Program-made: the position numbers and the translations under genes | In this document: positions 5,388 through 63,021 of the stretch, one piece after another | Layout of the letters: every line of letters begins with the position of its first letter | Numbering within the stretch: the first letter of the stretch is position 1 | From: Flaccisagitta enflata | Lineage: Eukaryota | Direction of reading: 5' to 3' | Assembly: GCA_965153355.1 (NCBI GenBank) | Contig: OZ231126.1 | Span: 41,602,001 to 41,666,000 of the forward strand | Length of the DNA: 64,000 nt | The notes under the pieces: generated by a model | Database searches by the model: none | Seen by the model: only the letters and a program-made list of their open reading frames with translations | Told to the model about the DNA's origin: nothing

Positions 5388-6056
5388 TTTTTGGGCAGCG
5401 GCCCCATTGCCCCAAGGCGTCGATGACCTATGCTTGCACACAAATGGGGAATTTTCTCTTCTTTCTTCTTCTTCTCCCCCTTCTCCATCCACCCTCCCTC
5501 AAATCCCAGTCTCGAGGCCCAAATCCCAGTCTCGAGGACCAAATCCCAGCCTCAAGACCCAAATTCCAGCCAAGAGGCCCAAATCCAAGCCTGGAGGCCC
5601 CGATCCTGGCCTTTAGGCCCAAATCTCAGTCTCGAGGTCCAAATCCCAGCCAAGAGGCCCAAATATCAGCCTCGAGGTCCAAATCCCAGCCAAGAGGCCC
5701 AGATCCCATCCTCAAGTCTGAGAATTGGGCCTCAAGGCTGGGATCTGGGCCTCCAGGCTTGGATTTGGGCCTCTTTGCTGGAATTTGGGCCTTGAGGCTG
5801 GAATCTGGGCCTTGAGGCTGACATTTGGGCCTTGAGCTTGAGACTGAAATTTGGACCTCAAGGCTGGAATTTGAGGGGGCAGGGACGGAGGAGGAGGAAG
5901 AGGAGAAGAAGGAGGAGACAATTCCCCATATGTGTGAAAGCATAGGTCATCGACCCCTTCCGGGCCGCTGCCCTGCTTCCCCTTCAACTTCAAGCACAAC
6001 CTTTTTCGGCAGGACACGGATACCGCTGACCATCTAACACTTTTGCGACTATTGTT
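5388..6056 (+). mobile_element. Foldback HINE-like element (family F): long palindromic body plus unpaired tail
   Basis: gggcagcggccc..gatgacctatgc at the left mirrored by gcataggtcatc..gggccgctgccc; inverted 21-bp ggcccaaatccc arrays inside; tail taccgctgaccat..ttgtt. Confidence 0.8.
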
Positions 6057-11962: not shown

Positions 11963-12225
11963 AACAAGGCCAAGTAGGCCAATAAGGTGCGACGTGTGGA
12001 TCGTCGAACAAATGCGTTACCGACCGACCAACCGACCAACCAACCAACCGACGGACACAGCCAGTTATAGAGGTGCTTTGTCGCACCTAAAAAGGAAAAG
12101 AATCATATAACAAGGCCAAGTAGGCGAACGAATGCGTTACAGACAGACCGACCGACCAACCAACCAACCAACCAACCAACCGACGGACAGAGCCAGTTAT
12201 AGAGGTGCGTTGTCGCACCTAAAAA
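11963..12225 (-). mobile_element. Head-to-tail dimer of a short HINE-like element (family D)
   Basis: Two units aacaaggccaagtaggc..(accg/acca)n..ttatagaggtgc-ttgt-cgcacctaaaaa at 11963-12093 and 12109-12225. Confidence 0.85.
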
Positions 12226-15316: not shown

Positions 15317-15618
15317 AACAAGCCCGACCGGGCAACGATGCGTCCGGGCTGTGTCTTTGCATGTATTGATCATGTGATATATATGGAGAGACAGGTGGAC
15401 GAGCAGAGGGGTGGAATGACAAAATAGTAAAGGAGGCTCTCAAAATATGTTGGTTGATCATTTGTTTCAGTAACGAATCTCAACGCGGCAAAAAACAGCT
15501 GAAAAACGCGGTTTTAGCACTTGCGTAACGGACGGACATACGGACGGACCGACGGACGGACGGACGGACGGACTGACCGACAAACCTTCTTATAGAGATG
15601 CGAGGACGCATCTAAAAA
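15317..15618 (-). mobile_element. Full HINE-like monomer family E, parent of the satellite
   Basis: aacaa-gcccgaccgggc stem-loop, subTIR gatgcgtcc, (GACG)n, hairpin agatgcg-agga-cgcatct, AAAAA; inverted homolog at 62736-63021. Confidence 0.88.
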
Positions 15619-16047
15619 CGTTAAGAGGCTCTCAAAGCAGTATATAAAGTGCTCGGTCTAGCATGTGACATCACTGCAATCGTAAGGTGAAGATAACTGC
15701 GTTGTCCTCTGTATTTCTTGCAGACAAAAACGTTCACCATTGATTAATGAGATTTGCATAAAGCAGTGCTAGTCGTACTCAAATATCACATAGTTAACAT
15801 AACAGATTGATTATGATTCAATAACCTGGCCTAAAAAACTTTATATTTCGTAAAGAAAACAATGACAAAAACACATGATAATTCAGTTTACAACATCCGG
15901 ATAAATTGTTTAGCATAGAAACCGACAGAACAGAGATAATTCATGAATTGTTTTGTAAAAAAAATTGAAACATGGAGGTGGGTGGGATGGGGGCAAGATC
16001 CAAGCAATCAGAAGTAATGTTAAGTGGGATAGCTGTCACGTAACTCA

Positions 16048-19000
16048 AGAGATGCGAGGACGCATCTAAAAATGCTTGGGAGTGGTTTGGGAGGGATTGG
16101 TTTGGTTATTGATTGATTTTCGAGAAAGGGTAACGGACCGACGGACGGACCGACGGACGGACGGACAGACCCTCTTATAGAGATGCGAGGACGCATCTAA
16201 AAATGCTTGGGAGTGGTTTGGGAGGGATTGGTTTGGTTATTGATTGATTTTCGAGAAAGGGTAACGGACCGACGGACGGACCGACGGACGGACGGACAGA
16301 CCCTCTTATAGAGATGCGAGGACGCATCTAAAATGGTCAGGGGTGGTTGTTGGGTGATTTGAGATGGATAGATGTGATTTAAGCAGAAAAAGGTAACGAC
16401 CTAGACGGACGGACCGACGGACGGACGGACAGACCCTCTTATAGAGATGCGAGGACGCATCTAAAAATGCTTGGGAGTGGTTGGGGAGGGATTGGTTTGC
16501 TATTGATTGATTTTCATAGCTGGTGACCGACGGACCGACGGACGGACCGGACGGACGGACGGACACACCCTCTTATAGAGATGCAGGACGCATCTAAAAA
16601 ATGTGTTGGGGAGGGTTTGGGAGGGATTGTCTACATGATTGATTTTCGGAGAAAGGGCAACGACCGAACGGACTGACCGACGGACGGACGGACAGACCCT
16701 CTTATAGAGATGCGAGGACGCATCTAAAAATGCTTGGGACTTGATCCTTGACCTCCTCGCGGCTGAAAAGGGCCAAAAACTGTGATTTTCAAGGAGGCGT
16801 AACGGACCGACGGACGGACCGACGGACGGACGGACAGACCCTCTTATAGAGATGCGAGGACGCATCTAAAAATGCTTGGGAGTGGTTTGGGAGGGATTGG
16901 TTTGGTTATTGATTGATTTTCGAGAAAGGGTAACGGACCGACGGACGGACCGACGGACGGACGGACAGACCCTCTTATAGAGATGCGAGGACGCATCTAA
17001 AATGGTCAGGGGTGGTTGTTGGGTGATTTGAGATGGATAGATGTGATTTAAGAGAAAGGGTAACGACCGACGGATGATCGACGGACGGACGGACAGACCC
17101 CTCTTATAGAGATGCGAGGACGCATCTAAAAATGCTTGGGAGTGGCTTGGGAGGGATTGGTTTGGTTATTGATTGATTTTCGAGAAAGGGTAACGGACCG
17201 ACGGACGGACCGACGGACGGACGGACAGACCCTCTTATAGAGATGCGAGGACGCATCTAAAAATGCTTGGGAGTGGTTTGGGAGGGATTGGTTTGGTTAT
17301 TGATTGATTTTCGAGAAAGGGTAACGGACCGACGGACGGACCGACGGACGGACGGACAGACCCTCTTATAGAGATGCGTGAGGACGCATCTAAAAATGCT
17401 TGGGAGTGGTTTGGGAGATTGGTTTGGTTATTGATTATCAGATTTTCGAGAAAAAGGTAAACCCAGACTCCACGGACGGATTCCACGGACGGACGGACAG
17501 ACTTTCTTATAGAGACATTTTGTGACTCATCTAAAAATGCTGGAGTGGTTTAGAGGGATTACTTGCTATTGATTGATTTTCGAGAAAGGGTAACGGACCG
17601 ACCGGGATCTTTATCGACGGACGGACGACAGCACTCTCTTTATAGAGATGCGAGGACGATCTAAAAATGCTTGGGAGTGGTTTGGGAGGGGATTGGTTTG
17701 CTATTGACTGATTTTCGAGAAAGGGTAACGGACCGACGGACGGACTGACGGACGGGATTTGACAGACTCTCTATAGAGATGCGAGGACGCATCTAAAAAT
17801 GCTTGGGAGGGTTTGGGAGGGATTATCGTGTATATTGATTGATTTTCGAGAAGGGTAACGGATCGACGGGACGGACCGACGGGACCAACGGAGACAGACC
17901 CTCTTATAGAGATGCGAGGACGCATCTAAAAATGCTTGATCCTTGACATCCTCGCGGCTGAAAAGGGCCAAAAACTGCGATTTTCAAGGAGGCGTAACGG
18001 ACCGACGGACGGACCGACGGACGGACGGACAGACCCTCTTATAGAGATGCGAGGACGCATCTAAAAATGCTTGGGAGTGGTTTGGGAGGGATTGGTTTGG
18101 TTATTGATTGATTTTCGAGAAAGGGTAACGGACCGACGGACGGACCGACGGACGGACGGACAGACCCTCTTATAGAGATGCGAGGACGCATCTAAAAATG
18201 CTTGGGAGTGGTTTGGGAGGGATTGGTTTGGTTATTGATTGATTTTCGAGAAAGGGTAACGGACCGACGGACGGACCGACGGACGGACGGACAGACCCTC
18301 TTATAGAGATGCGAGGACGCATCTAAAAATGCTTGGGAGTGGTTTGGGAGGGATTGGTTTGGTTATTGATTGATTTTCGAGAAAGGGTAACGGACCGACG
18401 GACGGACCGACGGACGGACGGACAGACCCTCTTATAGAGATGCGAGGACGCATCTAAAAATGCTTGGGAGTGGTTTGGGAGGGATTGGTTTGGTTATTGA
18501 TTGATTTTCGAGAAAGGGTAACGGACCGACGGACGGACCGACGGACGGACGGACAGACCCTCTTATAGAGATGCGAGGACGCATCTAAAAATGCTTGGGA
18601 GTGGTTTGGGAGGGATTGGTTTGGTTATTGATTGATTTTCGAAAAAGGGTAACGGACCGACGGACGGACGGACGGACGGACGGACGGACAGACCCTCTTA
18701 TAGAGATGCGAGGACGCATCTAAAAATGCTTGGGAGGGGTTTGGGAGGGATTGGTTTGGTTATTGATTGATTCAGAAAGGGTAACGGACCGATGGACGGA
18801 CCGACGGGATCGGACGGACAGACCCTCTTATAGAGATGCCAGGACGACGCATCTAAAAATGCTTGGGAGTGGCTTTGGGAGGTGGGATTGGTTTGGTTAT
18901 TGATTGATTTTCGGAAACAGCCGCGAAAAGCAGTTTTTGTACAGATATCTGACGGACTGACGGACGGACGGACAGACCCTCTTATAGATGTGCTATACGC

Positions 19001-22000
19001 ATCTAAAATGCTTTCAAGGGTTTGGGAGGGATTGGTTTGGCTATTGATTGATTTTCGAGAAAGGGTAACGGACCTCTACGGACGACCGACGGACGGACGG
19101 ATAGACCCTTATAGAGATGGTGACGCATCTAAAAATGCTTGGGAGTGGTTTAGAGGATTATTGTTTATTGATTGATTTTCGAGAAAGGGTAACGGACCGA
19201 CGGACGGACCTACGGACGGACGACAGACCTCCTATAGAGATGCTAGACGCATCTAAAAATGCTTGGGAGTGGTTTGGGAGGGATTGGTTTGGTTATTGAT
19301 TGATTTTCGAGAAAGGGTAACGGACCGACGGACGGACCGACGGACGGACGGACAGACCCTCTTATAGAGATGCGAGGACGCATCTAAAAATGCTTGGGAG
19401 TGGTTTGGGAGGGATTGGTTTGGTTATTGATTGATTTTCGAGAAAGGGTAACGGACCGACGGACGGACCGACGGACGGACGGACAGACCCTCTTATAGAG
19501 ATGCGAGGACGCATCTAAAAATGCTTGGGAGTGGTTTGGGAGGGATTGGTTTGGTTATTGATTGATTTTCGAGAAAGGGTAACGGACCGACGGACGGACC
19601 GACGGACGGACGGACAGACCCTCTTATAGAGATGCGAGGACGCATCTAAAAATGCTTGGGAGTGGTTTGGGAGGGATTGGTTTGGTTATTGATTGATTTT
19701 CGAGAAAGGGTAACGGACCGACGGACGGACCGACGGACGGACGGACAGACCCTCTTATAGAGATGCGAGGACGCATCTAAAAATGCTTGGGAGTGGTTTG
19801 GGAGGGATTGGTTTGGTTATTGATTGATTTTCGAGAAAGGGTAACGGACACTCGGAAGAGCACACGGACGGACCGACGGACGGACGGACAGACCCTCTTA
19901 TAGAGATGCGAGGACGCATCTAAAAATGCTTGGGAGTGGTTTGGGAGGGATTGGTTTGGTTATTGATTGATTTTCGAGAAAGGGTAACGGCTCTTACGAT
20001 CTCACGGACGGACCGACGGACGGACGGACAGACCCTCTTATAGATGCGAGGACGATCTAAAAATGCTTGGGAGTGGTTTGGGAGGGATTGGGTTTATATT
20101 GATTGATTTTCAGTAGTAACGACCGACGGACGGACCGACGGGACGTACCTGGACAGGCCCTCTATAGGAGATGCAGGACGATCTAAAAATGCTTGGGAGT
20201 GGTTTGGGAGGATTGGTTTGGAAGCTATTGATTGATTTTCGAGAAAGGGTAACGGACCGACGGACTTGGACTTAATGGACGGACGGACAGACTCCTTTCT
20301 TATAGAGATGCTAGACGCATCAAAAATGCTGGGAGTGGTTTGGGGAGGACATTGGTTAACATTGATTTTCTATAAAGGGTAACGGACCGACGGACGGACC
20401 GACGGACGGACGTACAGACTTTCTATAGAGATGCGCAGACGCATCTAAAAATGCTTGGAGTGGCTTGGGAGGGATTGGTTTGGTTATTGATTGATTTTCG
20501 AGAAAGGGTAACGGACCGACGGACGGACCGACGGACGGACGGACAGACCCTCTTATAGAGATGCGAGGACGCATCTAAAAATGCTTGGGAGTGGTTTGGG
20601 AGGGATTGGTTTGGTTATTGATTGATTTTCGAGAAAGGGTAACGGACCGACGGACGGACCGACGGACGGACGGACAGACCCTCTTATAGAGATGCGAGGA
20701 CGCATCTAAAATGGTCAGGGGTGGTTGTTGGGTGATTTGAGATGGATAGATGTGATTTAAGTAGGGCGGTAACGGACCGTACTGACGGACCGACGGACTG
20801 ACGGACAGACCTTCAGGAGATGCAGTACTTGATCCTTGACATCCTCGCGGCTGAAAAGGGCCAAAAACTGCGATTTTCAAGGAGGCGTAACGGACCGACG
20901 GACGGACCGACGGACGGACGGACAGACCCTCTTATAGAGATGCGAGGACGCATCTAAAAATGCTTGGGAGTGGTTTGGGAGGGATTGGTTTGGTTATTGA
21001 TTGATTTTCGAGAAAGGGTAACGGACCGACGGACGGACCGACGGACGGACGGACAGACCCTCTTATAGAGATGCGAGGACGCATCTAAAAATGCTTGGGA
21101 GTGGTTTGGGAGGGATTGGTTTGGTTATTGATTGATTTTCGAGAAAGGGTAACGGACCGACGGACGGACCGACGGACGGACGGACAGACCCTCTTATAGA
21201 GATGCGAGGACGCATCTAAAAATGCTTGGGAGTGGTTTGGGAGGGATTGTTTGGCTGAAAAGGGCCAAAAACTGTGATTTTCAAGGAGGCGTAATGGACC
21301 GACGGACGGACCGACGGACGGACGGACAGACCCTCTTATATAGAGATGCGAGGACGCATCTAAAAATGCTTGGGAGTGGTTTGGGAGGGATTGGTTTGGT
21401 TATTGATTGATTTTCGAGAAAGGGTAACGGACCGACGGACGGACCGACGGACGGACGGACAGACCCTCTTATAGAGAGATGAGTGACGCATCTAAAAATG
21501 CTTGGGAGTATTTGGGAGGGATTGGTTTGGCTATTGATTGATTTTCGAGAAAGGGTAACTGACCGACGGATTGACCGACGGTCGGACGGACGGACAGACC
21601 CTCTTAGAGAGTTGCGAGGACGATCTAAAAATGCTTGGGAGTGGTTTGGGAGGATTGGCTTGGTTGGTTGGATTGATTTCAGAAAGGGCAACGGACCCGA
21701 CGGACGGACCAAGGGACGGACGGACAGACCTCTTATGATGAGACGCATCTAAAACAAGTTGGGAGTATCAGAGGATTGGTTTGGCTATTGATTGATTTTC
21801 GAGAAAGGGTAACGGACCGACGACGGGATCCACGGGACGGGACGGACAGAATTTTATAGAGATGAGACGATTCTAAAAATGCTTGGGAGTGGTTTGGGAG
21901 GGATTGGTTTGGCTATTGATTGATTTTCTAGAAAGGGTAACGGACTGATTGACGGACCGACTGGACGGACTGACAGACCCTCTTATAGAGATGCGTGACG

Positions 22001-24362
22001 CACCCAAAATGCTTGGGGTTTGGGAGGGAGCTTGTTTGGTTATTGATCATTTTCAGAAAGGGTAACGGACCGATTTAATGACCATTGAGGACGGACAGAC
22101 CTTCCTATAGAGATGCGAGACGATCTAAAAATGCTTGGGAGTGGCTTGGGAGGGATTGGTTTGGTTATTGATTGATTTTCGGCAAAGGGTAACGGACCGA
22201 CGGACGGACCGACTGACGGACGGACAGACCCTCTTATAGAGATGCGAGGACGCATCTAAAATGCTTGGGAGTGGTTTGGGAGGGATTATTTGGTTATTGA
22301 TTGATTTTCGAGAAAAACTGACCGACGGACGGACCGACGGACGGACGGACAGACCCTCTATAGAGATGCGAGGACGTCGCACCAAAATGCTTGGGACTTG
22401 ATCCTTGACATCCTCGCGGCTGAAAAGGGCCAAAAACTGTGATTTTCAAGGAGGCGTAACGGACCGACGGACGGACCGACGGACGGACGGACAGACCCTC
22501 TTAAGATGCGAGGACGCATCTAAAAATGCTTGGGAGTGGTTTGGGAGGGATTGGTTTGGCTATTGATTGATTTTCGAGAAAGGGTAACGGACCGACGGAC
22601 GGACCGACGGACGGACGGACAGACCCTCTTATAGAGATGCGAGGACGCATCTAAAAATGCTTGGGAGTGGTTTGGGAGGGATTGGTTTGGTTATTGATTG
22701 ATTTTCGAGAAAGGGTAACGGACCGACGGACGGACCGACGGACGGACGGACAGACCCTCTTATAGAGATGCGAGGACGCATCTAAAAATGCTTGGGAGTG
22801 GTTTGGGAGGGATTGGTTTGGTTATTGATTGATTTTCGAGAAAGGGTAACGGACCGACGGACGGACCGACGGACGGACGGACAGACCCTCTTATAGAGAT
22901 GCGAGGACGCATCTAAAAATGCTTGGGAGTGGTTTGGGAGGGATTGGTTTGGTTATTGATTGATTTTCGAGAAAGGGTAACGGACCGACGGACGGACCGA
23001 CGGACGGACGGACAGACCCTCTTATAGAGATGCGAGGACGCATCTAAAAATGCTTGGGACTTGATCCTTGACATCCTCGCGGCTGAAAAGGGCCAAAAAC
23101 TGTGATTTTCAAGGAGGCGTAACGGACCGACGGACGGACCGACGGACGGACGGACAGACCCTCTTATAGAGATGCGAGGACGCATCTAAAAATGCTTGGG
23201 AGTGGTTTGGGAGGGATTGGTTTGGTTATTGATTGATTTTCGAGAAAGGGTAACGGACCGACGGACGGACCGACGGACGGACGGACAGACCCTCTTATAG
23301 AGATGCGAGGACGCATCTAAAAATGCTTGGGAGTGGTTTGGGAGGGATTGGTTTGGTTATTGATTGATTTTCGAGAAAGGGTAACGGACCGACGGACGGA
23401 CTGACGGATGGACAGACAGACCCTCTTATAGAGATGCGAGGACGCATCTAAAAATACTTGGGAGTGGTTTGGGAGGGATTGGTTTGGCTATTGATTGATT
23501 TTCTAGAAAGGGTAACGGACTGACGACGGACTGGACGGACGGACGGACAGACCCTCTTATAGAGATGCGAGGACGCATCTAAAAATGCTTGGGAGTGGTT
23601 TGGGAGGGATTGGTTTGGTTATTGATTGATTGAGAAAGGGTAACGGACCGATGACGGACCGACGGACGGATGGGGACAGACCTCTTATAGAGATGCGAGG
23701 ACGCATCTAAAAATGCTTGGGAGTACTTGGGAGGGATTGGTTTGGTTATTGATTGATTTTCGAGAAAGGGTCACGGACCGACGGACGGACTGACGGACGG
23801 ACGGACAGACCCTCTTATAGAGATGCGAGGACGCATCTAAAAATGCTTGGGAGGTTTGGAGTGATTGATTTGGTTATTGATTGATTTTCGAGAAAGGGTA
23901 ACGGACCGACGGACGGGATCGACGGATGGACGGACAGACCTCTTATAGAGATGCGAGGACGCATCTAAAAATGCTTGGGAGTGGTTTGGGGGAGGATTGG
24001 TTTGCTATTGATTGATTTTCGAGAAAGGTCACGGACCGACGGACGACCGACGGACGGACGGACCGACAGACCCTCTTATAGAGATGCGACGCATCTAAAA
24101 ATGCTTGGGAGTGGTTTGGGAGGGATTGTTTGGTTATTGATTGATTTTCGAGAAAGGGTAACGGACCGACGGACGGACCGACGGACGGACGGACAGACCC
24201 TCTTATAGAGATGCGAGGACGCATCTAAAAATGCTTGGGAGTGGTTTGGGAGGGATTGGTTTGGTTATTGATTGATTTTCGAGAAAGGGTAACGGACCGA
24301 CGGACGGACCGACGGACGGACGGACAGACCCTCTTATAGAGATGCGAGGACGCATCTAAAAA
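16048..24362. repeat. Satellite of about 63 copies of a 131-bp unit derived from the hairpin end of HINE family E
   Basis: Period measured at 18061, 18192, 18323; each unit is a G/T-rich spacer, (GACG/GACC)n, then ctcttatagagatgcgaggacgcatctaaaaa. Confidence 0.97.
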
Positions 24363-25418: not shown

Positions 25419-25648
25419 ATTTTTAGTCACGTGCTACGCGACTCTACACCCTGCTTTGTCGGTCAGTCTGACCATCTGTTGGTCCGTCCGTCTGTCTGTC
25501 CATCCGTCTGTCCGTCCATCACACTTTACTTTTTTTGGGTTTTTGCAGTTTTTGGCCTCACTGCTTCTGCCAAAATGATGGAGTGACCACAATTATGCCC
25601 CCTGCCCACCCACACGCGACTGGGGTAACTGTGTATCCAGCCTTGTTT
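25419..25648 (+). mobile_element. HINE-like element family A
   Basis: ttttagtcacgtgctacgcgact ... cacgcgactggggtaactgtgtatccagccttgtt. Confidence 0.85.
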
Positions 25649-25785: not shown

Positions 25786-27135
25786 TTTTCAGTTGCATGC
25801 TAGGCGACTCTACACCCCGCTATGTCGGTCGGTTGGGCGGTTGGTTGGTTGGTCAGTTGGTCCCCTTTTTGGGCAGCGGCCCCAAAGGGTCAATGTCCTT
25901 TAGGACTCAGGGTTGAACCATTCATTGTGTACGTCTGTCCATCCCCCCCCCCCAGCTCAAATTCCTCAAATTCCAATTGAATAACATGGGAAATTGATAA
26001 TATGCAAACTTCCCATCAAATAACATGGAAAATTGATGAAAAAAAGAAAACAAGGCCAGATACACGGCCACCAGTAGCGGACGGGTGGGCAGGGGCGGAA
26101 ATGCGCGTTTTCACACTTTTCGACTCGTGGTCACGGACCGACCGACGGACGGACCGACACAGGCTCTTATAGAGTTGCGTGTCCGCAACTAAAAATGTGA
26201 AATTCCCATTGAATAACATGGCAAATTGATGAGAAATTGAAGAAATGCAAAACTCCCATTGAATGTCATGGAAAATTGCTCCAAAGGCCTCAATTATGCC
26301 CCCTAAGAACATATGGAAATTCACTTGTAACCTACAGGACATCGGCTTTACTGTGCTGCTCTCTTTCCACTTCTTTAGCCATCACTCCAAGCAGAGCATT
26401 GGGTAATGCTGACCATGTGTGATCCTTGGATGACTTGATCTTCTTCTTCCTTCTTCCCTTTCTACTTTAGTTCTTTCTCTTTTTCCTCTTTCTGAGCGGC
26501 GGCCCCAAAGGGCCAATGTCCTGTAGAACACGGGGGAATTTGAGACGTCCATCCTTCCCTCCGTCATTCTGTCCATTTTTCCGTCCGTCCATCCGACCAT
26601 CAAGGCCTAAAATTACCCCTCCCAAGCCTCAATTTAGTCCTCCAGGCCTCAAATTAGCCCTCTTGGCTTTAAATCAGCCCCATATGCCTCAAATCTGCCC
26701 TCCAGACCTCAAATCTGCCCTCCAGACCTTCAATCAGCCCTCTGAGCATAAAATCAGCCCTCTAAACCTCAAATCTGCTCTCTGAGCCTTAATTCTGGCC
26801 TCCAGCCCTCAAATATGCCTTCAGTGGCCTAAATCAGCCAACTAAAGCCTGAAATATACCCCCTCAGGATGGATGGAAGGACGGACGTCTCGAAATTCAC
26901 CCCCGTGTTCTACAGGACATTGGCCCTTTAGGGCCGCTGCCCTCCTCTCACTCCACTTCTTTACTGGATCATTCCCAGCAGGGCATCGGGTACCGCTGAC
27001 CATGTGCTGATCCTTGGATGACTAGTTACTTTTTTGGCGTTTTTGAGCATTTTGAGCATACAGCTCCTGCCCAGATGACCACCTCCTGCTCCTGCCCACC
27101 TGCACGCGACTAGGGTAGCCCTGTATCCGGCCTTT
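25786..27135 (+). mobile_element. Family A HINE split by two family F foldback elements (about 25866-26437 and 26493-27023); the first contains a family C HINE (26049-26194)
   Basis: Family A head at 25786-25865 and tail at 27027-27135 together match intact copies such as 25419-25648. Confidence 0.75.
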
Positions 27136-32913: not shown

Positions 32914-35615
32914 CCCTTAGGCGCAGTGAGACCTATGTTTGAGCTGAAGATAAGAAAGGGGCTGGGATTAGGTTATTGAGGCTAGGAGTAAATTTCTGAG
33001 GCAGGGACTAGGTTGCTACCTGGATAAGGTCTCTGAGGCTGGCATTAGGTTGCTTACGCCGGGATTAGGTCAGTGAGGCTGGGATATGGTCAGTGAGGCT
33101 AAGATAAGTTGACTTGTTGGAAGCAGGATTAGGTTGCTGAGACTGGCATTAAGTTGCTGAGACTGGGATTAGGTTTCTAAGGCTGGCATTAAGTTATTGT
33201 GATATGGATTAGGTTGCTGAAACAGGACTTTGGGTGCAAACGCAGGTATTAGGTTGCCAAGGTCACTATTAGGATGTTGAGGCTATAAGGTTGCTATGAG
33301 GTTGCTAGGGCTATAATGAGGTTGCTGATGCTGGTATTAGGTCGTTGATGTTAGGATAAGGTCTCTGAGGCTGGCATTATGTTGCTTAGGCCAGTATTAG
33401 GTCGCTGAGGCCATCATTAGGTCGCATAGGCTTAGATTAAGTTGCTGATGCCCTAATTACACTGCTGAGGCCCAGATCAGGTTGCTGAGGCTATGAGTAG
33501 GTTGCTGGGACCCAGATTAGGTTGCTGAGTCTAAGAGTAGGTTGCTGAGACCCAGATTAGGTTGCTAAGTCCCAGATTACGTGGCTTAGGCCCACAAGAC
33601 CCCAAATAAGGCCTCTCAGACCCCAAATTAGGCCACTCAGACCCCAAACTAGGCCCACAAGACCCCAAATAAGGCCTCTCAGACCCCAAATTAGGCCACT
33701 CAGACCCAAGACTAGACCTCTCAGATTCCAAATTAGGCTTCTTAGACATATCAAGACTCTCAGACCCCAAACCAGGCCACTCAGATCCCAAATCAGTCCA
33801 CTCAAACCCAAAATCAGGCCAGTCAGACCCAAAATTAGGCCTTTCAGACACCAAATCATGCCTCTCAGACCCTACATTAGACCTTAAGACTCAAAACCCT
33901 CCCTCTCAGCCCTCAAAACCAGCTTCTCATCATCTCAAGTCCCAAATATACAAAGCTTAGGGGCCCCCTTACAGACATACTATGGAAGAAATCATGCTCA
34001 ATTTGACTGAGCAATGTTATAAATATCCTCTGTTTGAAATATTCACATTTTAGCAAAAATAGAGATGTGTTCCTATGGCAGCCGCCCATAATGGAAAATG
34101 AAACATCCTTCTGTTTTTTTTAGGCAGTGGCCCCGAAGGGGACGAAGTCCTGTAGAACACAGGGAGAATCTGTCCGTCCGTACGTACGTCGGTACATCCG
34201 TACATCCATATCCCCCTATCTTCATTGTCTCCTTCAAGCCCTATTTTGACCAAAATTCTGCTAAATAGCCCAAATCCAAGCAACATGGCCCAAATCTAAG
34301 CAAAATAGCCCAAATCCAAGCATAATGGCCCAAATTCAAGCAAAGTGGCCCAAATCTAATGAAAACTGGTCTGGCGAGGTCTATCATTTCTGGCCCAAAT
34401 TCTACTAAATAGCACAAATCCAAGCAATATGACCTAAATCTTAGCAAGATGTCCTAAATCCAAGCATAATTGCCCAAATTCAAGCAAAAAGTTTAAAATC
34501 TAGCCAGAAAACCCCAATACTAGGTCCATCATATTGGCCCCTTAGACCTATGTTGTGGCCTCCAATATCTAGGTTCTGACCAGATTTTGCTTGAATTTGA
34601 GCCATTACGCTTGGATTTAGGCCATTTTTGGGCTTTTTGGCAGAACGGATGGACAGACGGATGGATGGATGGGCTGATCTCCCCTGTATTTTACAGGACT
34701 TCATCCTCTTCGTCCCCTTCGGGGCCGCTGCCCTACTCCCCTTCCTAAATCAAACACTAATCAAGCAGGGCATGGGTACCGCTGACCATTTACTGCCTTT
34801 GGGCTGCTATTTCTTTTTGGGCAGCAGCCCCAAAGGGGACAAAGTCCTGTAGAATACAGGGTGAATCTGTCCGTTCGTCCATCTGTACATTTGCTCGTCC
34901 CCCACCCCGCCTCATATTCAGGGCTTCTTCTTTGGGGCCTCCTCTGACCTAAATTCTGCCAAATAGCCTAAATCCAAGCAATATAGCCAAAATCAGAACA
35001 AAATGGCCCAAATCCAAACATATTGGCCCAAATCCAAGCAAAATGGCCAAAATCTAAACCATAAAATCCTGAGGTCCATCATTTTGGCCCTTTAGACCTA
35101 TATTGTAGCCTCCAATACCTACCTATACCGACCAAATTTAGGCCATTTTACTTGGATTTGGCCCATTTTGCTTGGATTTGGCCCATTTTGCTTAGAATTT
35201 AGCCCATTTGCTTTAATTTGGGCCTAGCCCTTTCTGGAATTTGGGCTATTTGGATGGACAGACAGACAGATTCTCTCCCCCCTTGCTTGGATTTGGGCAA
35301 TTTGGATGGACTTTGTCCCCTTCAAGGCCGCTGCTCTGCTCCCCTTCAACCTAAATCATACGCTAAGTACTCAAGAAGGGCATAGGAACCGCTCACCATT
35401 TTTTTGCCTTTAGGCTGCTATTTTAAGTCACTTAGTGCTCTAGTTTTTTTCACCGTTATGCTTGGCTGAATCATCTCACATCTTAATGTATTTCCTACTT
35501 TCTCCAATGATCTGGTAAACTAAGCAGAATGACACAGAATGTAATTGGAGAAGTAAAATTTTGAAAAAGGTAAAAAATGATTTCATTCATTTTTTGCATG
35601 CTCTGCGCCTAAGGG
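32914..35615. mobile_element. TIR element with piggyBac-like CCCT ends, carrying 20-21 bp arrays (about 32960-33900) and nested family F elements
   Basis: aacccttaggcgcag ... ctgcgcctaagggtt, a 15-bp perfect inverted repeat; TTAA TSD not intact. Confidence 0.5.
34114..35424 (+). mobile_element. Two head-to-tail family F foldback elements (34114-34812 and 34813-35424)
   Basis: Each starts ttttt(a/g)ggcag..gcccc.aaggggac.aagtcctgtagaa and ends accgct.accat...gcctt..ggctgctatt. Confidence 0.8.
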
Positions 35616-35740: not shown

Positions 35741-37055
<1,315 letters not shown>

Positions 37056-38564: not shown

Positions 38565-38773
38565 AACAAGGCCGATACACAGCTACCCCAGTCGCGTGTG
38601 GGTGGGCAGGGGCTGTATTTGAGGTCACTTTATCATTTGGGCAGGAGCAGTGAGGCCAAAGACCGCAAAAAACAAAAAAAATTAAGTGTGACAGATGGAG
38701 CGACAGACGGACCGACCAATGGACTGACGGACTGACAAATTGGGTGTAGAGTCGCGTGGCACGCGACTAAAAA
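38565..38773 (-). mobile_element. HINE-like element family A
   Basis: aacaaggccgatacacagc..cagtcgcgtg ... agtcgcgtggcacgcgactaaaaa. Confidence 0.88.
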
Positions 38774-51134: not shown

Positions 51135-52704
51135 AACAAGGCCAACACCTATAAGTCGCGTGCGAGACATAAAAAACTGAATTGACCTGACTTCTTATTA
51201 TATCTTTTGAATCAACATGACTGATTAGGGAGAAATATCAGAAATGAATAAAATGATTTAGTTGACTAGATTGACTTGAATAAATTGATGAATAAATCAG
51301 CTTAATGAGGTATTGGTGGCCGTGGAAACCCACCCAGTTACAGGCCGAGACCACTGGAAAAAGTGGTGACTTTTGTAATTGAGTCAAATTAATCAACTCT
51401 ATCAACCCAATCAACGAAAAATGAATAAACCAGACTTAAACCAGCAGACCTTAACCACCAGACTTTAACCACCAGACTTAAACCAGCAGACTTAAACCAG
51501 AAGACTTAAACCAGCAGACTTAAACCAGCGGACTAATACCAGCAGACCTAAACCAGCAGACCTAAACCAGCAGACTTAAACCAGCAGACTTAAACCAGCA
51601 GACTTAAACCAGCAGACTTAAACCAGCAGACTTAAACCAGCCAACTTAAACCAGCCAACTTAAACCAGCCAACTTAAACCAGCCAACTTAAACCAGCCAA
51701 CTTAAACCAGCCAACTTAAGCCAGCAGACTTAAACCAGCAGACTTAAACCAGCAGACTTAAACCATCAGACTTTAACCAGCAGACTTAAACCAGCAGACT
51801 TGAAATGACATAAAAGACCAAAACATACCAAAAAGCATAAATGACCAAAACATAACAAAAAACATAAATGACAAAAAAAGCCAAAAAACCAAAAAACCAA
51901 AAACATAAATGACCAAAACATACCAAGAAACCATGTTAAATGACCAAAAACCAAAAACCAAAAACCAAAAACCAAAAAAAAACTAAAACCAAAAACTAAA
52001 AACCAAAAACAAAAAAAAAACATAAATGACCGAAGCATACTGAAAAACCATGTTTAATGACCAAAAATGACCTGAAATGTCCCAAAAAAACAAAAAAACA
52101 AAAACCAAAAAACCAAAAAACCTAAAACCAAAAAACCTAAAACCAAAGAACCAGAAAACCAGAAAACCAAAAAACCAAAAACCAAAAGACCAAAAACATA
52201 AATGACCAAAACATATCAAAAAACCATGTTTAATGAACAAAAACCAATATGAACAAAAACCAATAAAAACAAAAATCAAAAAACCAAAAATCCAAAAAAA
52301 CAAAGACCAAAAACCAAAAACCAAAAAACCAAAAAACATAAATGACCAAAACATACCAAAAAACCATATTAAATGACCAAAAAAGACCAGAAATGTCCCA
52401 AAATGATTTAAAATGACTTAAAACTACCTTAAATGCCCAAAAACAACACAAATGACGTAAATCAAAAAAGTGACGTAAATGATCAAAAATGACCAAAAAT
52501 GACCAGAAGCAACCAAAAATGACTAAAAACAACAAAAGATGACTAAAAACAACAAAAAAATGACTCAAAATAACTCCAGACGACCCAAAATGACCAAAAA
52601 CGACGCGAAAAAGCAAAGTTTTAAGGACCGACCGACCGACCAACCAACCAACCAACCGACCGACCGACAGAGCGGGTTGTAGAGTCGCGTGCACGCGACT
52701 AAAA
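51135..52704 (-). mobile_element. HINE-like element (family A2) expanded by a 14-bp array (aaaccagcagactt, about 51430-51800) and A-rich repeats
   Basis: Same ends as 41909-42455; perfect hairpin agtcgcgtgcacgcgact. Confidence 0.82.
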
Positions 52705-52800
52705 ACACAAAAAAAGTAAAATGTGACTAACAAACGGAAAAAGCGGGGTGTAGAGTCACATGGCATGCGACTAAAAATGATCAAAGAAGTAATGGTAGAA

Positions 52801-52948
52801 AACAAGGTCGGATACACGGCCAATACCAGTTGCGGACGGGTGGGCAGGGGCGGAAATGCGCGTTTTCACACTTTCCAACCCGATCACCATGACCGATGGA
52901 CCGACGGACGGACAAAGGCTCATAGAGTTGCGTGGCCGCAAATAAAAA
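52801..52948 (-). mobile_element. HINE-like element family C (plus-strand relative at 56467-56606)
   Basis: aacaaggtcggatacacggc..agttgcggac ... agttgcgtggccgcaa. Confidence 0.8.
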
Positions 52949-54105: not shown

Positions 54106-54335
54106 TATTCAACGTGCGTGTGTAGAGTTGCGCGTGCGCAACTAAAAAGATTCAGGCCTCATGGCTGCGAAGAAAACTGTTTTAAGGGCCAACAGAGACG
54201 TTCTAATGCAGTCCAAAAGAAAACCGCGAGACTGATGCAGGATCCAAAAGTAAAAGAAATCTTTAACATGGATGGACAGACCCAGCAGGGCTTCTCCCGG
54301 TCACCCAGTCTCCGTCATCCCAACCAGCCGACACA

Positions 54336-55809: not shown

Positions 55810-56639
55810 TACCAAGGGATGCGACACAGTTTCTACGTGCTTTGGCGCACTTTTGTTTTCATAAGCGCAAATAATTAACAGATCTTCCCGATTTACGTAA
55901 CCGATTTCCTTCTTTTTTACTGTTACGTCTGCTTGACCAATCTTTTAGGACGAAACGATGCTTAAAGTCTCTTACACGGCACGGCATGAAGGGAGGAATG
56001 AAGATTGGATGAAAAGAAGGGAGGAATTGGAAGGAAAGGGAAGAAGGAAGGAAGGAAGGAAGGAAGAAAGGAAGGAAGAAAGGATGAATGAAAGGAAGGA
56101 GTCAAAGAAAGGGAGGAAGAAGGGGGAAAGGAAGGTATGAGGGAAGGAAGAAAAGAAAGGAGGGAAGAAGAAAAGAAGGACTTGAGAAGTATGTATCTAG
56201 TTGTGTGTATAATTGAAAACTGGACACGCAACTGTTGGCCTGTTGGGCTCGAAGTTCTTTAAGTGATTGTCCGTTGGTCCGTCTAACAATCCACCCGGGT
56301 GGATTGTATGTATGCTGAATGAATGAATGAGTGTATGAAAGAATGAATGAATTCAATTTACGATTACAAACAAGAATTACTTTTTGTGTAATTGTAGAAA
56401 GCCTTCATTAACGGATAGCCTATGAAAGTCAACAAATCTTTATTTTCTAATATCGAATGTTTATATTTTTAGTCGCGGGCAAGCGACTCTATAAGAGGCT
56501 TTGTCTGTCCGTCCGTCGGTCCGTGGTGATCGAGTTTGAAAGAGTGAAAACACACATTTCCGCCCCTGCCCACCCGTCCGCGACTGGTATTGGCCGTGTA
56601 TCCGGCAATTTCTACAATATGAGTGTTTGACTATCAAAT

Positions 56640-62735: not shown

Positions 62736-63021
62736 TTTTTTAGATGCGTCCTCGCATCTCTATAAGAGGATCTGTTGGTCCGCCCGTCCGTCCGTCGGTC
62801 CGTCGGTCCGTAACGCCTGTGCAAAAACTGCGTTTCTCGGCTGTTTTTGGCCTCCGTGAGATCCTATACTGAATCAAATGATCGACAAACATGTTTTGAG
62901 AGTCTCCTTTACTTCTCAGTCCTCTCATCTGTCAGTTCGTCCATCTGTCTCTCCATTCATGTCACATGTTCAATACACGCAGAGACACAGTCTGGATGCA
63001 TCGTTGCCCGGTCGGCTTGTT
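62736..63021 (+). mobile_element. Full HINE-like monomer family E
   Basis: ttttagatgcgtcctcgcatctctataagagg..(GTCC)n..ggatgcatcgttgcccggtcggcttgtt. Confidence 0.88.

What the first reader, a model, noticed from the sequence alone, without database searches (positions are those of the whole stretch)
16048..24362. 8.3-kb satellite made only of the hairpin end of a HINE, with interchangeable spacers
Seen: about 63 units of 131 bp. Each keeps a constant module, (GACG)n plus the hairpin agatgcg-agga-cgcatct plus AAAAA, matching one terminus of the dispersed ~300-bp monomers at 15317 and 62736, but the other terminus (aacaag stem-loop, subTIR) is absent. The segment between constant modules comes in distinct versions: major type A; type B (ggtcaggggtggttgttggg) near 16333, 17003, 20712; type C (cttgatccttgacatcctcgcggctgaaaag) near 16740, 17935, 20828, 22397, 23060; and one piece resembling the monomer body near 18913. 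Known: Helitron/Helentron derivatives can seed satellites. Inference: repeated re-initiation or template switching at the hairpin among sister subfamilies built a constant-repeat, variable-spacer array, later amplified as higher-order blocks.
Basis: partly seen in the sequence, partly recalled or inferred. Interest (0 to 1): 0.72.

Follow-up and report, generated by a model that had tools for sequence, protein, structure and literature searches.

The report
Satellite made of Helentron 5' ends
An 8.3-kb tandem array in a marine animal genome consists of about 63 copies of only the starting end of a small rolling-circle transposon (a HINE), an arrangement already described for plant Helitrons, so it is a good example and not a new kind of thing.

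Summary
Window 16048-24362 is a 131-bp tandem array of 63 units plus one terminal hairpin. Each unit carries the hairpin AGATGCG-AGGA-CGCATCT, an A-run and an (ACGG)n microsatellite. That module is identical to one end of two complete ~300-bp dispersed elements at 15317-15618 and 62737-63021. The other end of those elements is absent from the array.

By the published HINE anatomy (PMC7492417), the repeated end is the 5' end (LF: subTIR, complementary IR, GTCC microsatellite) read on the minus strand.

"Interchangeable spacers" is overstated. 54 of 63 units are type A or A-like, 3 are B, 5 are C and 1 is an A/C chimera. No higher-order period exists.

Short contigs from four public runs carry hairpin+A and hairpin+B junctions, short of the tool's bridging rule. 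They show C next to ordinary HINE body sequence.

Best reading: a concatemer of a 3'-truncated HINE, as proposed for plant Helitron arrays with many 5' ends, later patched by recombination.

Array length is unverified. Illumina adapter pieces sit inside two units, so parts of the assembly are artefactual.

Verdict: real, new member of a known kind, moderate interest.

The parts
16048..24362 (-). Tandem array of 63 units of about 131 bp plus one terminal hairpin. Each unit is the 5' (LF) part of a HINE in canonical orientation on the minus strand: T-run, subTIR AGATGCGTCC, IR CGCATCT, CTATAAGAGGG, (GTCC/GTCG)n, then about 58-69 nt of internal sequence.
   Evidence: HINE anatomy from PMC7492417
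24338..24362 (-). Canonical 5' boundary of the array. A complete LF terminus (T-run plus hairpin) abuts unrelated flank, as in the dispersed copies.
   Evidence: (flank|start strings of the array and both monomers)
16048..16074 (-). Canonical 3' boundary. A solitary T-run plus hairpin plus 2 nt, with no microsatellite, followed by unrelated sequence.
16872..17002 (-). Reference type A unit (131 bp). 17 of 62 segments are letter-identical to it, and two more (units 1 and 2) differ only through my boundary placement.
17003..17131 (-). Type B unit. The others are at 16334-16466 and 20712-20827. B shares the 23 nt next to the microsatellite with A.
23050..23191 (-). Type C unit (142 bp). The others are at 16730-16871, 17932-18066 (7-nt deletion), 20828-20959 (preceded by a truncated hairpin) and 22377-22525. 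C starts with A's first 10 nt and then carries sequence found in dispersed HINE bodies.
21222..21365 (-). A/C chimeric unit: about 40 nt of A at the left in + coordinates, then the C part next to the microsatellite.
18859..19008 (-). Unit 22. It is A-like but carries a 26-nt piece of HINE body next to the microsatellite, matching the 62737 copy at 23 of 26 positions.
15317..15618 (-). Complete short HINE, same orientation as the array and 430 bp from it. LF is at 15594-15618. The 3' subTIR GGACGCATC, the palindrome GCCCGGTCGGGC and the TTGTT end are at 15317-15350.
62737..63021 (+). Second complete short HINE, opposite orientation, about 79% identical to the first but identical in LF.
19852..19866 (.). 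15-nt exact match to an Illumina adapter (adapter sequence recalled), inserted in the microsatellite of unit 29. This is an assembly artefact.
19990..20002 (.). 13-nt match with 1 mismatch to the complementary adapter stem, at the same phase of unit 30. This is an assembly artefact.

Best explanation
The array is a satellite whose monomer is a 3'-truncated HINE, the non-autonomous partner of Helentron rolling-circle transposons. Each unit holds only the cis-acting 5' end (T-run, 5' subTIR with its complementary IR forming a 7-bp hairpin, GTCC-type microsatellite) plus about 60 nt of adjoining internal sequence. This much is shown.

The origin is inferred. A copy that lost its 3' subTIR and palindrome, the terminator, was copied round and round as a small circle or read through repeatedly by the Helentron Rep-helicase. 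That gave a head-to-tail concatemer that starts at a true element 5' terminus and stops just past a hairpin. This is the scheme proposed for plant Helitron arrays with many 5' ends and lost 3' ends.

Later changes are also inferred. Unequal exchange and gene conversion within the ~70-bp constant part homogenised runs of A units and brought in single B units, which come from a sister version of the same satellite. A microhomology junction brought in C, a piece of an ordinary dispersed HINE body.
For: Shown:
- Unit anatomy equals the published HINE LF: 5' subTIR, IR, microsatellite GTCC/GTCY, then a 10-500 bp highly variable segment (PMC7492417 Results).
- The hairpin folds in A, B and C units.
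- The dispersed copies have the matching 3' subTIR and palindrome. The array has none.
- LF hairpins of other HINE families in the window keep the stem through changes on both sides (AGATGCG/CGCATCT, AGTTGCG/CGCAACT, AGGTGC/GCACCT, AGTCGCG/CGCGACT). This argues that the hairpin is a functional cis element.
- The 23-nt LF module is exact in 14 metagenome loci that have unrelated bodies.
- The canonical 5' boundary of the array is a bona fide element terminus. The 3' boundary lies 2 nt after a solitary hairpin.
- Blocks of perfect 131-bp periodicity run 283-649 bp.
- Small versions of the same thing exist: LF-LF 71 bp apart at 52680/52751, and LF-LF 140 bp apart in metagenome locus L014.
- In four runs, contigs of 59-100 nt contain the hairpin end followed by the A or B spacer.
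- Loose ends before the start of C in 4 of 4 runs read HINE-body-like sequence.

From the literature:
- Plant Helitron arrays have multiple 5' ends, and the 3' terminator is lost from a circular template (Xiong et al. 2016, seen only as described in PMC12628747 and PMC8268682 passages).
- In Helraiser the LTS is essential, the RTS is dispensable, and circles form and transpose (PMC4778049 passages).
Against: - No 3' end adjoins the array. The nearest RF belongs to a separate complete element beyond 430 bp of sequence that is not similar to the element (score 24 against shuffle mean 18.7 and maximum 30).
- The hairpin-array-hairpin boundary pattern is also what unequal exchange between two nearby LF copies would give.
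- No circle, no solo 131-bp unit and no second array was seen. Spacers A, B and C have no match elsewhere in the window or in the 14 metagenome loci. The scans of prokaryote genomes and viral contigs found nothing.
- The Helraiser and Xiong data concern Helitrons, not Helentrons.
- The array contains 24 noisy A-like units. If these are real, they show age and decay, not one recent burst.
- Adapter fragments show that the assembly is locally wrong.
- The array's length rests on the assembly alone.
Confidence: 0.5

Rival explanations
1. Purely recombinational satellite. Two HINE 5' ends came to lie about 131 bp apart in the same orientation, by adjacent or nested insertion followed by deletion. 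Unequal crossing-over or replication slippage between them then expanded the interval into an array, with no rolling-circle step. Ectopic conversion later introduced B and C.
For: - Head-to-tail pairs of HINEs or LF modules are common here: two complete mini-HINEs at 11963-12225, LF-LF at 52680/52751 and L014.
- Such a seed (R-S-R) expands to (R-S)n-R, which is exactly the observed hairpin-bounded array.
- Homogenised runs alternate with diverged blocks, and substitution variants are shared between units (80 of 167 substitution states shared by 2 or more units). Both are classic for unequal exchange.
- HINEs prefer T-rich targets, and their own T-run is one (PMC7492417 Results; PMC4067079 passages).
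Against: - It needs an unexplained 27-nt LF fragment (T-run, hairpin and 2 nt, with no microsatellite) at the far end.
- The unit contains no trace of a 3' end, whereas the tandem pair at 11963-12225 consists of complete elements.
- It does not explain why the 5' end, and not any other part, is what gets multiplied here, at 52680/52751 and in L014.
Confidence: 0.3
2. Repeated re-initiation or template switching at the hairpin among sister HINE subfamilies assembled a constant-repeat, variable-spacer array, which was then amplified as higher-order blocks.
For: - Three spacer versions share one constant module.
- Junctions of C with A lie at short microhomologies, and one unit is an A/C chimera with its breakpoint inside the spacer.
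- One B-to-C junction has a truncated hairpin.
Against: - 54 of 63 units are A or A-like. B and C are 3 and 5 single units.
- There is no higher-order periodicity at offsets 1-30.
- The three left junctions of C can derive from one ancestral junction by a 7-nt and a roughly 25-nt deletion, so one entry event suffices.
- The breakpoints that can be seen lie in the spacer, not at the hairpin.
Confidence: 0.08
3. Largely an assembly artefact. A short or different repeat was inflated or scrambled by long-read assembly and short-read polishing, so the length, order and many variants are not biological.
For: - Adapter fragments lie inside units 29 and 30 at the same phase.
- 24 noisy units have 158 indel events against 138 substitutions, spread over spacer, microsatellite and LF alike.
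- 104 of 139 indel states are singletons.
- Letter-identical blocks alternate with noisy blocks.
- No read or contig spans the array.
Against: - Short contigs from four public runs in three studies contain hairpin+A and hairpin+B junctions and the C spacer, though they fall short of the tool's bridging rule. The best holder may be the source sample. The tandem arrangement and the variants are therefore probably real.
- B and C units are clean and recurrent.
- Many substitution variants are shared between units, for example GCTATTG in 11 units.
Confidence: 0.1

Closest known systems
Tandem arrays of 3'-truncated Helitrons in plant genomes (Xiong, Dooner and Du 2016, Plant J; known to me only through the descriptions in PMC12628747 and PMC8268682)
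   Same: Head-to-tail units that each begin with the element's 5' end. The 3' terminator is missing from the units. Copy numbers run from several to hundreds. The proposed origin is rolling-circle copying of a template that lost its terminator.
   Different: Those are Helitrons in plants, often centromeric, and many arrays keep one 3' end. Here the element is a Helentron-type HINE (subTIR/IR hairpin plus microsatellite) in a marine animal. The unit is only 131 bp, and the array ends in a solitary 5' hairpin with no adjoining 3' end.
Cg_HINE / Pearl / DTC84 elements of bivalves (PMC7492417, Results and Discussion read)
   Same: The same terminal anatomy: 5' subTIR, IR and GTCC-type microsatellite, a variable segment after it, and a 3' subTIR plus palindrome. 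They also show T-rich ends and no target duplication. The dispersed copies at 15317 and 62737 fit this fully.
   Different: In those elements the tandem repeats are central 140-180-bp repeats lying between LF and RF, and the longest array found had 29 monomers. In six oyster satellitomes, Helitron-like satellites always corresponded to the central repeats (PMC11136912 section 13). Here the repeated unit is the LF itself. The hairpin and spacer strings were not found in the held supplement of PMC8268682. In that of PMC7492417, one 10-nt string matched once, inside an unrelated repeat array.
DINE-1 / DINE-TR1 derived satellites of Drosophila (named in PMC7492417 Discussion, and PMC12628747)
   Same: A Helentron non-autonomous element gives rise to long satellite arrays.
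   Different: There the internal tandem repeats expand. Here the terminal cis-acting module is the monomer.
One-ended transposition of IS91-family rolling-circle insertion sequences (recalled, no call)
   Same: Loss of the terminator end of an HUH-nuclease element gives read-through and tandem multimeric products that all start at the origin end.
   Different: That is a bacterial system shown experimentally. The parallel here is inference only.

Membership tests
HINE (Helentron-associated interspersed element) | 5' subterminal inverted repeat a few nt from the 5' terminus, followed by a complementary IR | tested here: met
   On the minus strand, each unit and both dispersed copies read T-run, AGATGCGTCC, T, CGCATCT. 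A 7-bp stem folds in units A, B and C. Definition from PMC7492417 and PMC4067079.
HINE (Helentron-associated interspersed element) | Short microsatellite after the 5' subTIR/IR (GTCC, GTCY or GTCK in several Cg_HINEs) | tested here: met
   TRF reports (ACGG/ACCG)n of about 38 nt on the + strand in every unit, which is GTCC/GTCG on the canonical strand.
HINE (Helentron-associated interspersed element) | 3' subTIR complementary to the 5' subTIR, followed by a palindrome near the 3' end | tested here: not met
   Present in the dispersed copies: GGACGCATC plus GCCCGGTCGGGC plus TTGTT. Absent from the array units: monomer positions 1-204 give only chance 10-nt hits. The units are therefore truncated derivatives, not complete HINEs.
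HINE (Helentron-associated interspersed element) | Insertion in T-rich or TT sites without target-site duplication | tested here: inconclusive
   The flanks of both copies and of the array show T-runs at the ends and no duplication. No empty site was available, because no genome is held.
HINE (Helentron-associated interspersed element) | Autonomous Helentron partner (Rep, helicase, endonuclease) with matching ends in the same genome | not testable with these tools
   No genome is held. 11 of the 40 open frames of 130 aa or more were scanned and gave no Pfam hit.
Rolling-circle-amplified truncated Helitron array (Xiong-type) | Head-to-tail units that each start with the element's 5' end and lack its 3' end | tested here: met
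   63 units, all in one orientation, each with LF and none with RF.
Rolling-circle-amplified truncated Helitron array (Xiong-type) | A single 3' end closing the array (reported for many, not all, arrays) | tested here: not met
   The array ends 2 nt after a solitary LF hairpin. The nearest RF is part of a separate complete copy beyond 430 bp of dissimilar sequence.
Rolling-circle-amplified truncated Helitron array (Xiong-type) | Circular or concatemeric intermediates, or integration of the concatemer at a new site | not testable with these tools
   Only assembled contigs of public runs were available. There are no circle-enriched data and no empty-site allele.
Classical satellite with higher-order repeats | Periodicity of unit similarity at a multiple of the monomer | tested here: not met
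   Mean unit identity is 0.84-0.86 at all offsets 1-30.

The most novel reading that the evidence does not exclude
In this Helentron family the 5' hairpin module alone is both start and stop signal for the Rep-helicase, as a plasmid origin is. Any two neighbouring 5' ends would then define a 131-nt (or multiple) single-stranded circle. That circle can be copied into concatemers and re-inserted, which would make the LF-only satellite a self-propagating, transposase-driven repeat and not a dead by-product.

Hints:
- The array starts at the exact element terminus and stops 2 nt after a hairpin.
- 5' ends, and not other parts, are what occurs in tandem at two further places.
- Hairpin-to-B-spacer junctions occur at contig depths of 36-300 in three runs, although the window holds only three B units.
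Probability: 0.2. Interest if true: 0.65.

Novelty: new member of a known kind. Interest (0 to 1): 0.4.

Why it matters
Satellites born from rolling-circle transposons are usually traced to the elements' internal repeats. The oyster satellitome studies state this for every Helitron-like satellite they found.

Here the monomer is almost nothing but the cis-acting 5' end of a Helentron-type element. This locus is therefore a clean animal counterpart of the plant arrays with many 5' ends and no 3' end. It is also a natural substrate on which to test what a Helentron needs to start and to stop.

If such arrays turn out to be common in this genome, they would also be dense clusters of transposase nicking sites, and so candidate fragile or recombinogenic spots.

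On the practical side, the adapter fragments flag an assembly that needs re-polishing in its repeats.

Tried and rejected
- Whole-genome search for spacers attached to full-length copies: no genome is held.
- Spacers A, B and C: no match outside the array in the window, none in 14 metagenome loci found with the LF module, and 0 hits for spacer A or the LF module in prokaryote genome contigs and for the LF module in viral contigs.
- Homology of the spacers to each other and to the element body. Local alignments are only weakly above shuffles: A-B 36 of 1000 shuffles reach the score, C-body 29 and 116 of 1000, and A-body and B-body are not above chance. I therefore claim only the shared 23 nt next to the microsatellite (A-B), the shared first 10 nt (A-C) and the read evidence for C.
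- Similarity of the 430-bp interval 15619-16047 to the element: none.
- Higher-order repeats: none.
- Cover of the noisy units by public contigs. Bins 20063-20357 had almost no cover in the four runs.
- Depth figures could not be turned into copy numbers.
- Whether the noisy blocks are sequencing noise or old divergence stays open. Indel events exceed substitutions, yet half the substitution states are shared between units.
- Taxon or gene context: 11 of the 40 open frames of 130 aa or more gave no Pfam family, and there is no Rfam family in the window. Run labels are coded.
- Earlier notes of this scan: nothing by place, by sequence or by words.
- Text searches for the hairpin and spacer strings in held supplements. 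PMC7492417 gave one unrelated 10-nt match and PMC8268682 none.
A 131-bp satellite of this kind in those five oysters is therefore not excluded.
- Papers describing a Helentron or HINE 5'-end-only satellite: none surfaced in four full-text searches, whose listings I scanned by title and abstract only. Xiong et al. 2016 itself was not read.


Full report
**What is there**

Tandem Repeats Finder reports one array at 16048-24362 with period 131, 63.2 copies, 84% matches and 7% indels. The region stands out by composition: GC 0.50 and GC skew +0.31 to +0.35, against about 0.37-0.43 GC around it.

Splitting the array at its constant module gives 63 units. There is also a solitary hairpin at the left edge and one truncated hairpin before 20828.

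Read on the + strand, each unit has four parts:
- an internal segment of 57-69 nt;
- GTAACGG followed by an (ACGG/ACCG)n tract of about 38 nt;
- CAGACCCTCTTAT;
- the hairpin AGAGATGCG-AGGA-CGCATCT and four or five A.

The loose pattern TAGAG-N12-20-TAAAA occurs 69 times in the window against 1.96 expected, and 0 of 100 shuffles reach that count. Of these, 54 lie in the array, and 41 of the 54 are the exact 25-mer.

**Which end of which element**

Two complete elements of about 300 bp lie at 15317-15618 (+ reading) and 62737-63021 (opposite strand). They are about 79% identical overall but identical across the last 31 nt, the hairpin module.

The published anatomy of bivalve HINEs is as follows (PMC7492417, Results read in full):
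- a left flank with a 5' subTIR, a complementary IR and a microsatellite, often GTCC/GTCY;
- a segment of 10-500 bp that is highly variable;
- central repeats;
- a right flank with a 3' subTIR and a palindrome.

Read on the minus strand, the window's module is exactly such a left flank: T-run, AGATGCGTCC, T, CGCATCT, CTATAAGAG, (GTCC)n. The dispersed copies end with GGACGCATC, which is the complement of the 5' subTIR, then the palindrome GCCCGGTCGGGC and TTGTT.

The RF and body (monomer positions 1-204) have only two chance 10-nt matches in the array, E = 9.4. The hairpin folds as a 7-bp stem with a 4-nt loop in A, B and C units.

Thirteen further LF modules of other HINE families lie in the window. 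Several keep the stem through changes on both sides: AGTTGCG/CGCAACT, AGGTGC/GCACCT, AGTCGCG/CGCGACT. This marks the hairpin as a conserved cis element.

The exact 23-nt module also occurs in 14 metagenome contigs. Each has a microsatellite but a different body, and the flanks after the A-run are unrelated.

**The spacers**

The unit types, in order along the array, read aaBnnCABAannnnCAAAAannnnAAAAnnnnnaABCAAxannnnnanCAAAACAannannAA. The counts are:

| Type | Units |
|---|---|
| A, at least 98.5% identical to the reference | 20 |
| Near-A | 9 |
| Noisy A-like | 25 |
| B | 3 |
| C | 5 |
| A/C chimera | 1 |

Seventeen of 62 segments are letter-identical. Two more differ only through my boundary placement.

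A and B share the 23 nt next to the microsatellite and differ further out. C units begin with A's first 10 nt and then change. Statistical support for deeper homology among the spacers is weak.

Unit 22 carries 26 nt that match the body of the 62737 copy at 23 of 26 positions, and 0 of 1000 shuffles reach its score.

There is no higher-order period. Mean unit identity is 0.84-0.86 at every offset from 1 to 30. The picture is therefore one dominant monomer with a few single variant units, not a repeat-spacer system.

**Independent reads**

No genome is held. Sixteen public runs were listed, of which 14 hold part of the stretch. The best holds 0.30 of its sampled words, and all are kept as assembled contigs.

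I laid four runs on 19650-21400: two labelled with the coded organism and two marine metagenomes.
- Contigs of 59-100 nt contain the end of the hairpin followed by the A spacer (X3 record 17, X2 record 16 with no differing letter, X5 record 29).
- Others contain the hairpin end followed by the B spacer (X1 records 2-5 at depths 67-300, X3 record 18, X5 record 30).
- Most X1 depth at 20707 has one more A than the window.
- C-spacer contigs occur in X1, X2 and X3.
- In all four runs the loose ends to the left of C's start read a sequence ending in GAGTGTTTG. One includes the motif GAGGCTCTCAAAA, which the dispersed copy at 15317 also has in its body.

So C comes from ordinary dispersed HINE bodies. 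B was seen only directly behind a hairpin, which suggests that B-type tandem units exist elsewhere in that genome. The best holder may be the sample the window was assembled from, so this support is only partly independent.

**Quality of the assembly**

Positions 19852-19866 are a 15-nt exact match to an Illumina adapter. Positions 19990-20002 are a 13-nt match with one mismatch to its complementary stem. The adapter sequences are recalled from memory. Both are inserted at the same microsatellite phase of neighbouring units 29 and 30. These are technical sequence.

Twenty-four A-like units are noisy, with 138 substitutions against 158 indel events, spread evenly over spacer, microsatellite and LF. 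Of 139 indel states, 104 are singletons. But 80 of 167 substitution states are shared by two or more units, for example GCTATTG in 11 units.

Part of the divergence is therefore real and part may be unpolished noise. I cannot separate the two. No read spans the array, so its length is unverified.

**How it most likely arose**

The array has two telling boundaries.
- On the canonical strand it begins with a complete element terminus: unrelated flank, then the T-run and hairpin, as in both dispersed copies.
- It ends 2 nt after a solitary T-run plus hairpin that has no microsatellite.

Tandem arrays of truncated Helitrons with many 5' ends and lost 3' ends, of several to several hundred units, have been described in 27 plant genomes. 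They are explained by loss of the 3' terminator from a circular template followed by further rolling-circle copying and integration. This is Xiong et al. 2016, which I know only from passages of PMC12628747 and PMC8268682.

For the bat Helitron Helraiser, the left end is essential, the right end and its hairpin are dispensable and act as a terminator, and circles form and transpose (PMC4778049 passages).

The window's array fits that scheme for a Helentron-type element, and I take it as the best explanation at 0.5. Its weak points are:
- no 3' end adjoins the array;
- no circles or solo units were seen;
- unequal exchange between two neighbouring 5' ends would give the same hairpin-bounded structure (rival, 0.3).

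Small tandems of 5' ends at 52680/52751 and in metagenome locus L014 show that seeds of either kind arise repeatedly. So does a head-to-tail pair of complete mini-elements at 11963-12225.

The later history is inferred from the block pattern and the junctions: homogenised runs of A, single B units, and C entering through a short microhomology and then spreading.

**Comparison with what is known**

In six oyster satellitomes, every Helitron-like satellite corresponded to the element's central repeats (PMC11136912, section 13 read). The longest HINE-borne array in Crassostrea gigas had 29 monomers.

A satellite whose monomer is the LF itself did not surface in four full-text searches, whose listings I scanned by title and abstract only. 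The architecture is, however, the one already described for plant Helitrons.

I file it as a new member of a known kind. The organism is not known to me. The runs are labelled with a coded organism and marine metagenomes, and the hairpin and spacer strings are absent from the held supplement of PMC8268682. In that of PMC7492417, one 10-nt string matched once, inside an unrelated repeat array.

**Verdict**

- Observation: confirmed.
- Interpretation: partly supported.
- Interest: 0.4.

The boldest reading not excluded is that the 5' hairpin serves as both start and stop for the Rep-helicase. LF-only units would then be a transposase-propagated satellite. I give it a probability of about 0.2.

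Noticed in passing
window 19852-19866 and 19990-20002: Fragments of the two complementary Illumina adapter stems (15 nt exact; 13 nt with 1 mismatch) sit at the same microsatellite phase of two neighbouring units. The adapter sequences are recalled from memory. This indicates untrimmed short reads in assembly or polishing.
   Followed up: partly
window 11963-12225: Two complete mini-HINEs of about 130 bp each lie head to tail, 15 nt apart. Each has a palindrome end, a subTIR, an ACCG/ACCA microsatellite and an AGGTGC..GCACCT hairpin. They belong to a family different from the array's.
   Followed up: partly
window 52620-52947: Three 5' hairpin modules lie in one orientation, at 52680, 52751 and 52923. 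The first two are only 71 bp apart and the second lacks a microsatellite. The third closes a full element that starts near 52800.
   Followed up: partly
window 25421-25446(-), 26170-26194, 38747-38772, 54123-54147, 56467-56491(-): These are 5' modules of further HINE families. Their hairpin stems differ from the array's on both sides yet stay complementary. The window is dense in such elements.
   Followed up: partly
L014 (metagenome contig), oriented positions about 240-505: Two 5' modules lie 140 bp apart in the same orientation, with related spacers (about 70% alike by eye). An RF-like palindrome lies about 230 bp further on. This may be a small case of two 5' ends with one 3' end.
   Followed up: partly
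L013 (metagenome contig), oriented positions about 110-265: A roughly 150-bp mini-HINE has a 17-nt perfect inverted repeat between its two ends. It shares the exact 5' module of the window's elements.
   Followed up: no
window 5500-5836, 26603-26855, 33000-35220, 36249-36772: There are many 20-bp minisatellites, some in both orientations, and a 55-bp repeat of 9.5 copies. TRF gives 219 rows in 64 kb. Eleven of the 40 open frames of 130 aa or more were scanned and gave no Pfam family. There is no Rfam family in the window.
   Followed up: no
window 16048-24362, noisy blocks (for example 17396-17931, 18726-19258, 19926-20450, 21498-22130): Blocks of 4-5 indel-rich units alternate with blocks of letter-identical units roughly every 1.2 kb. 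Whether this reflects patchy polishing or patchy homogenisation is unresolved.
   Followed up: partly
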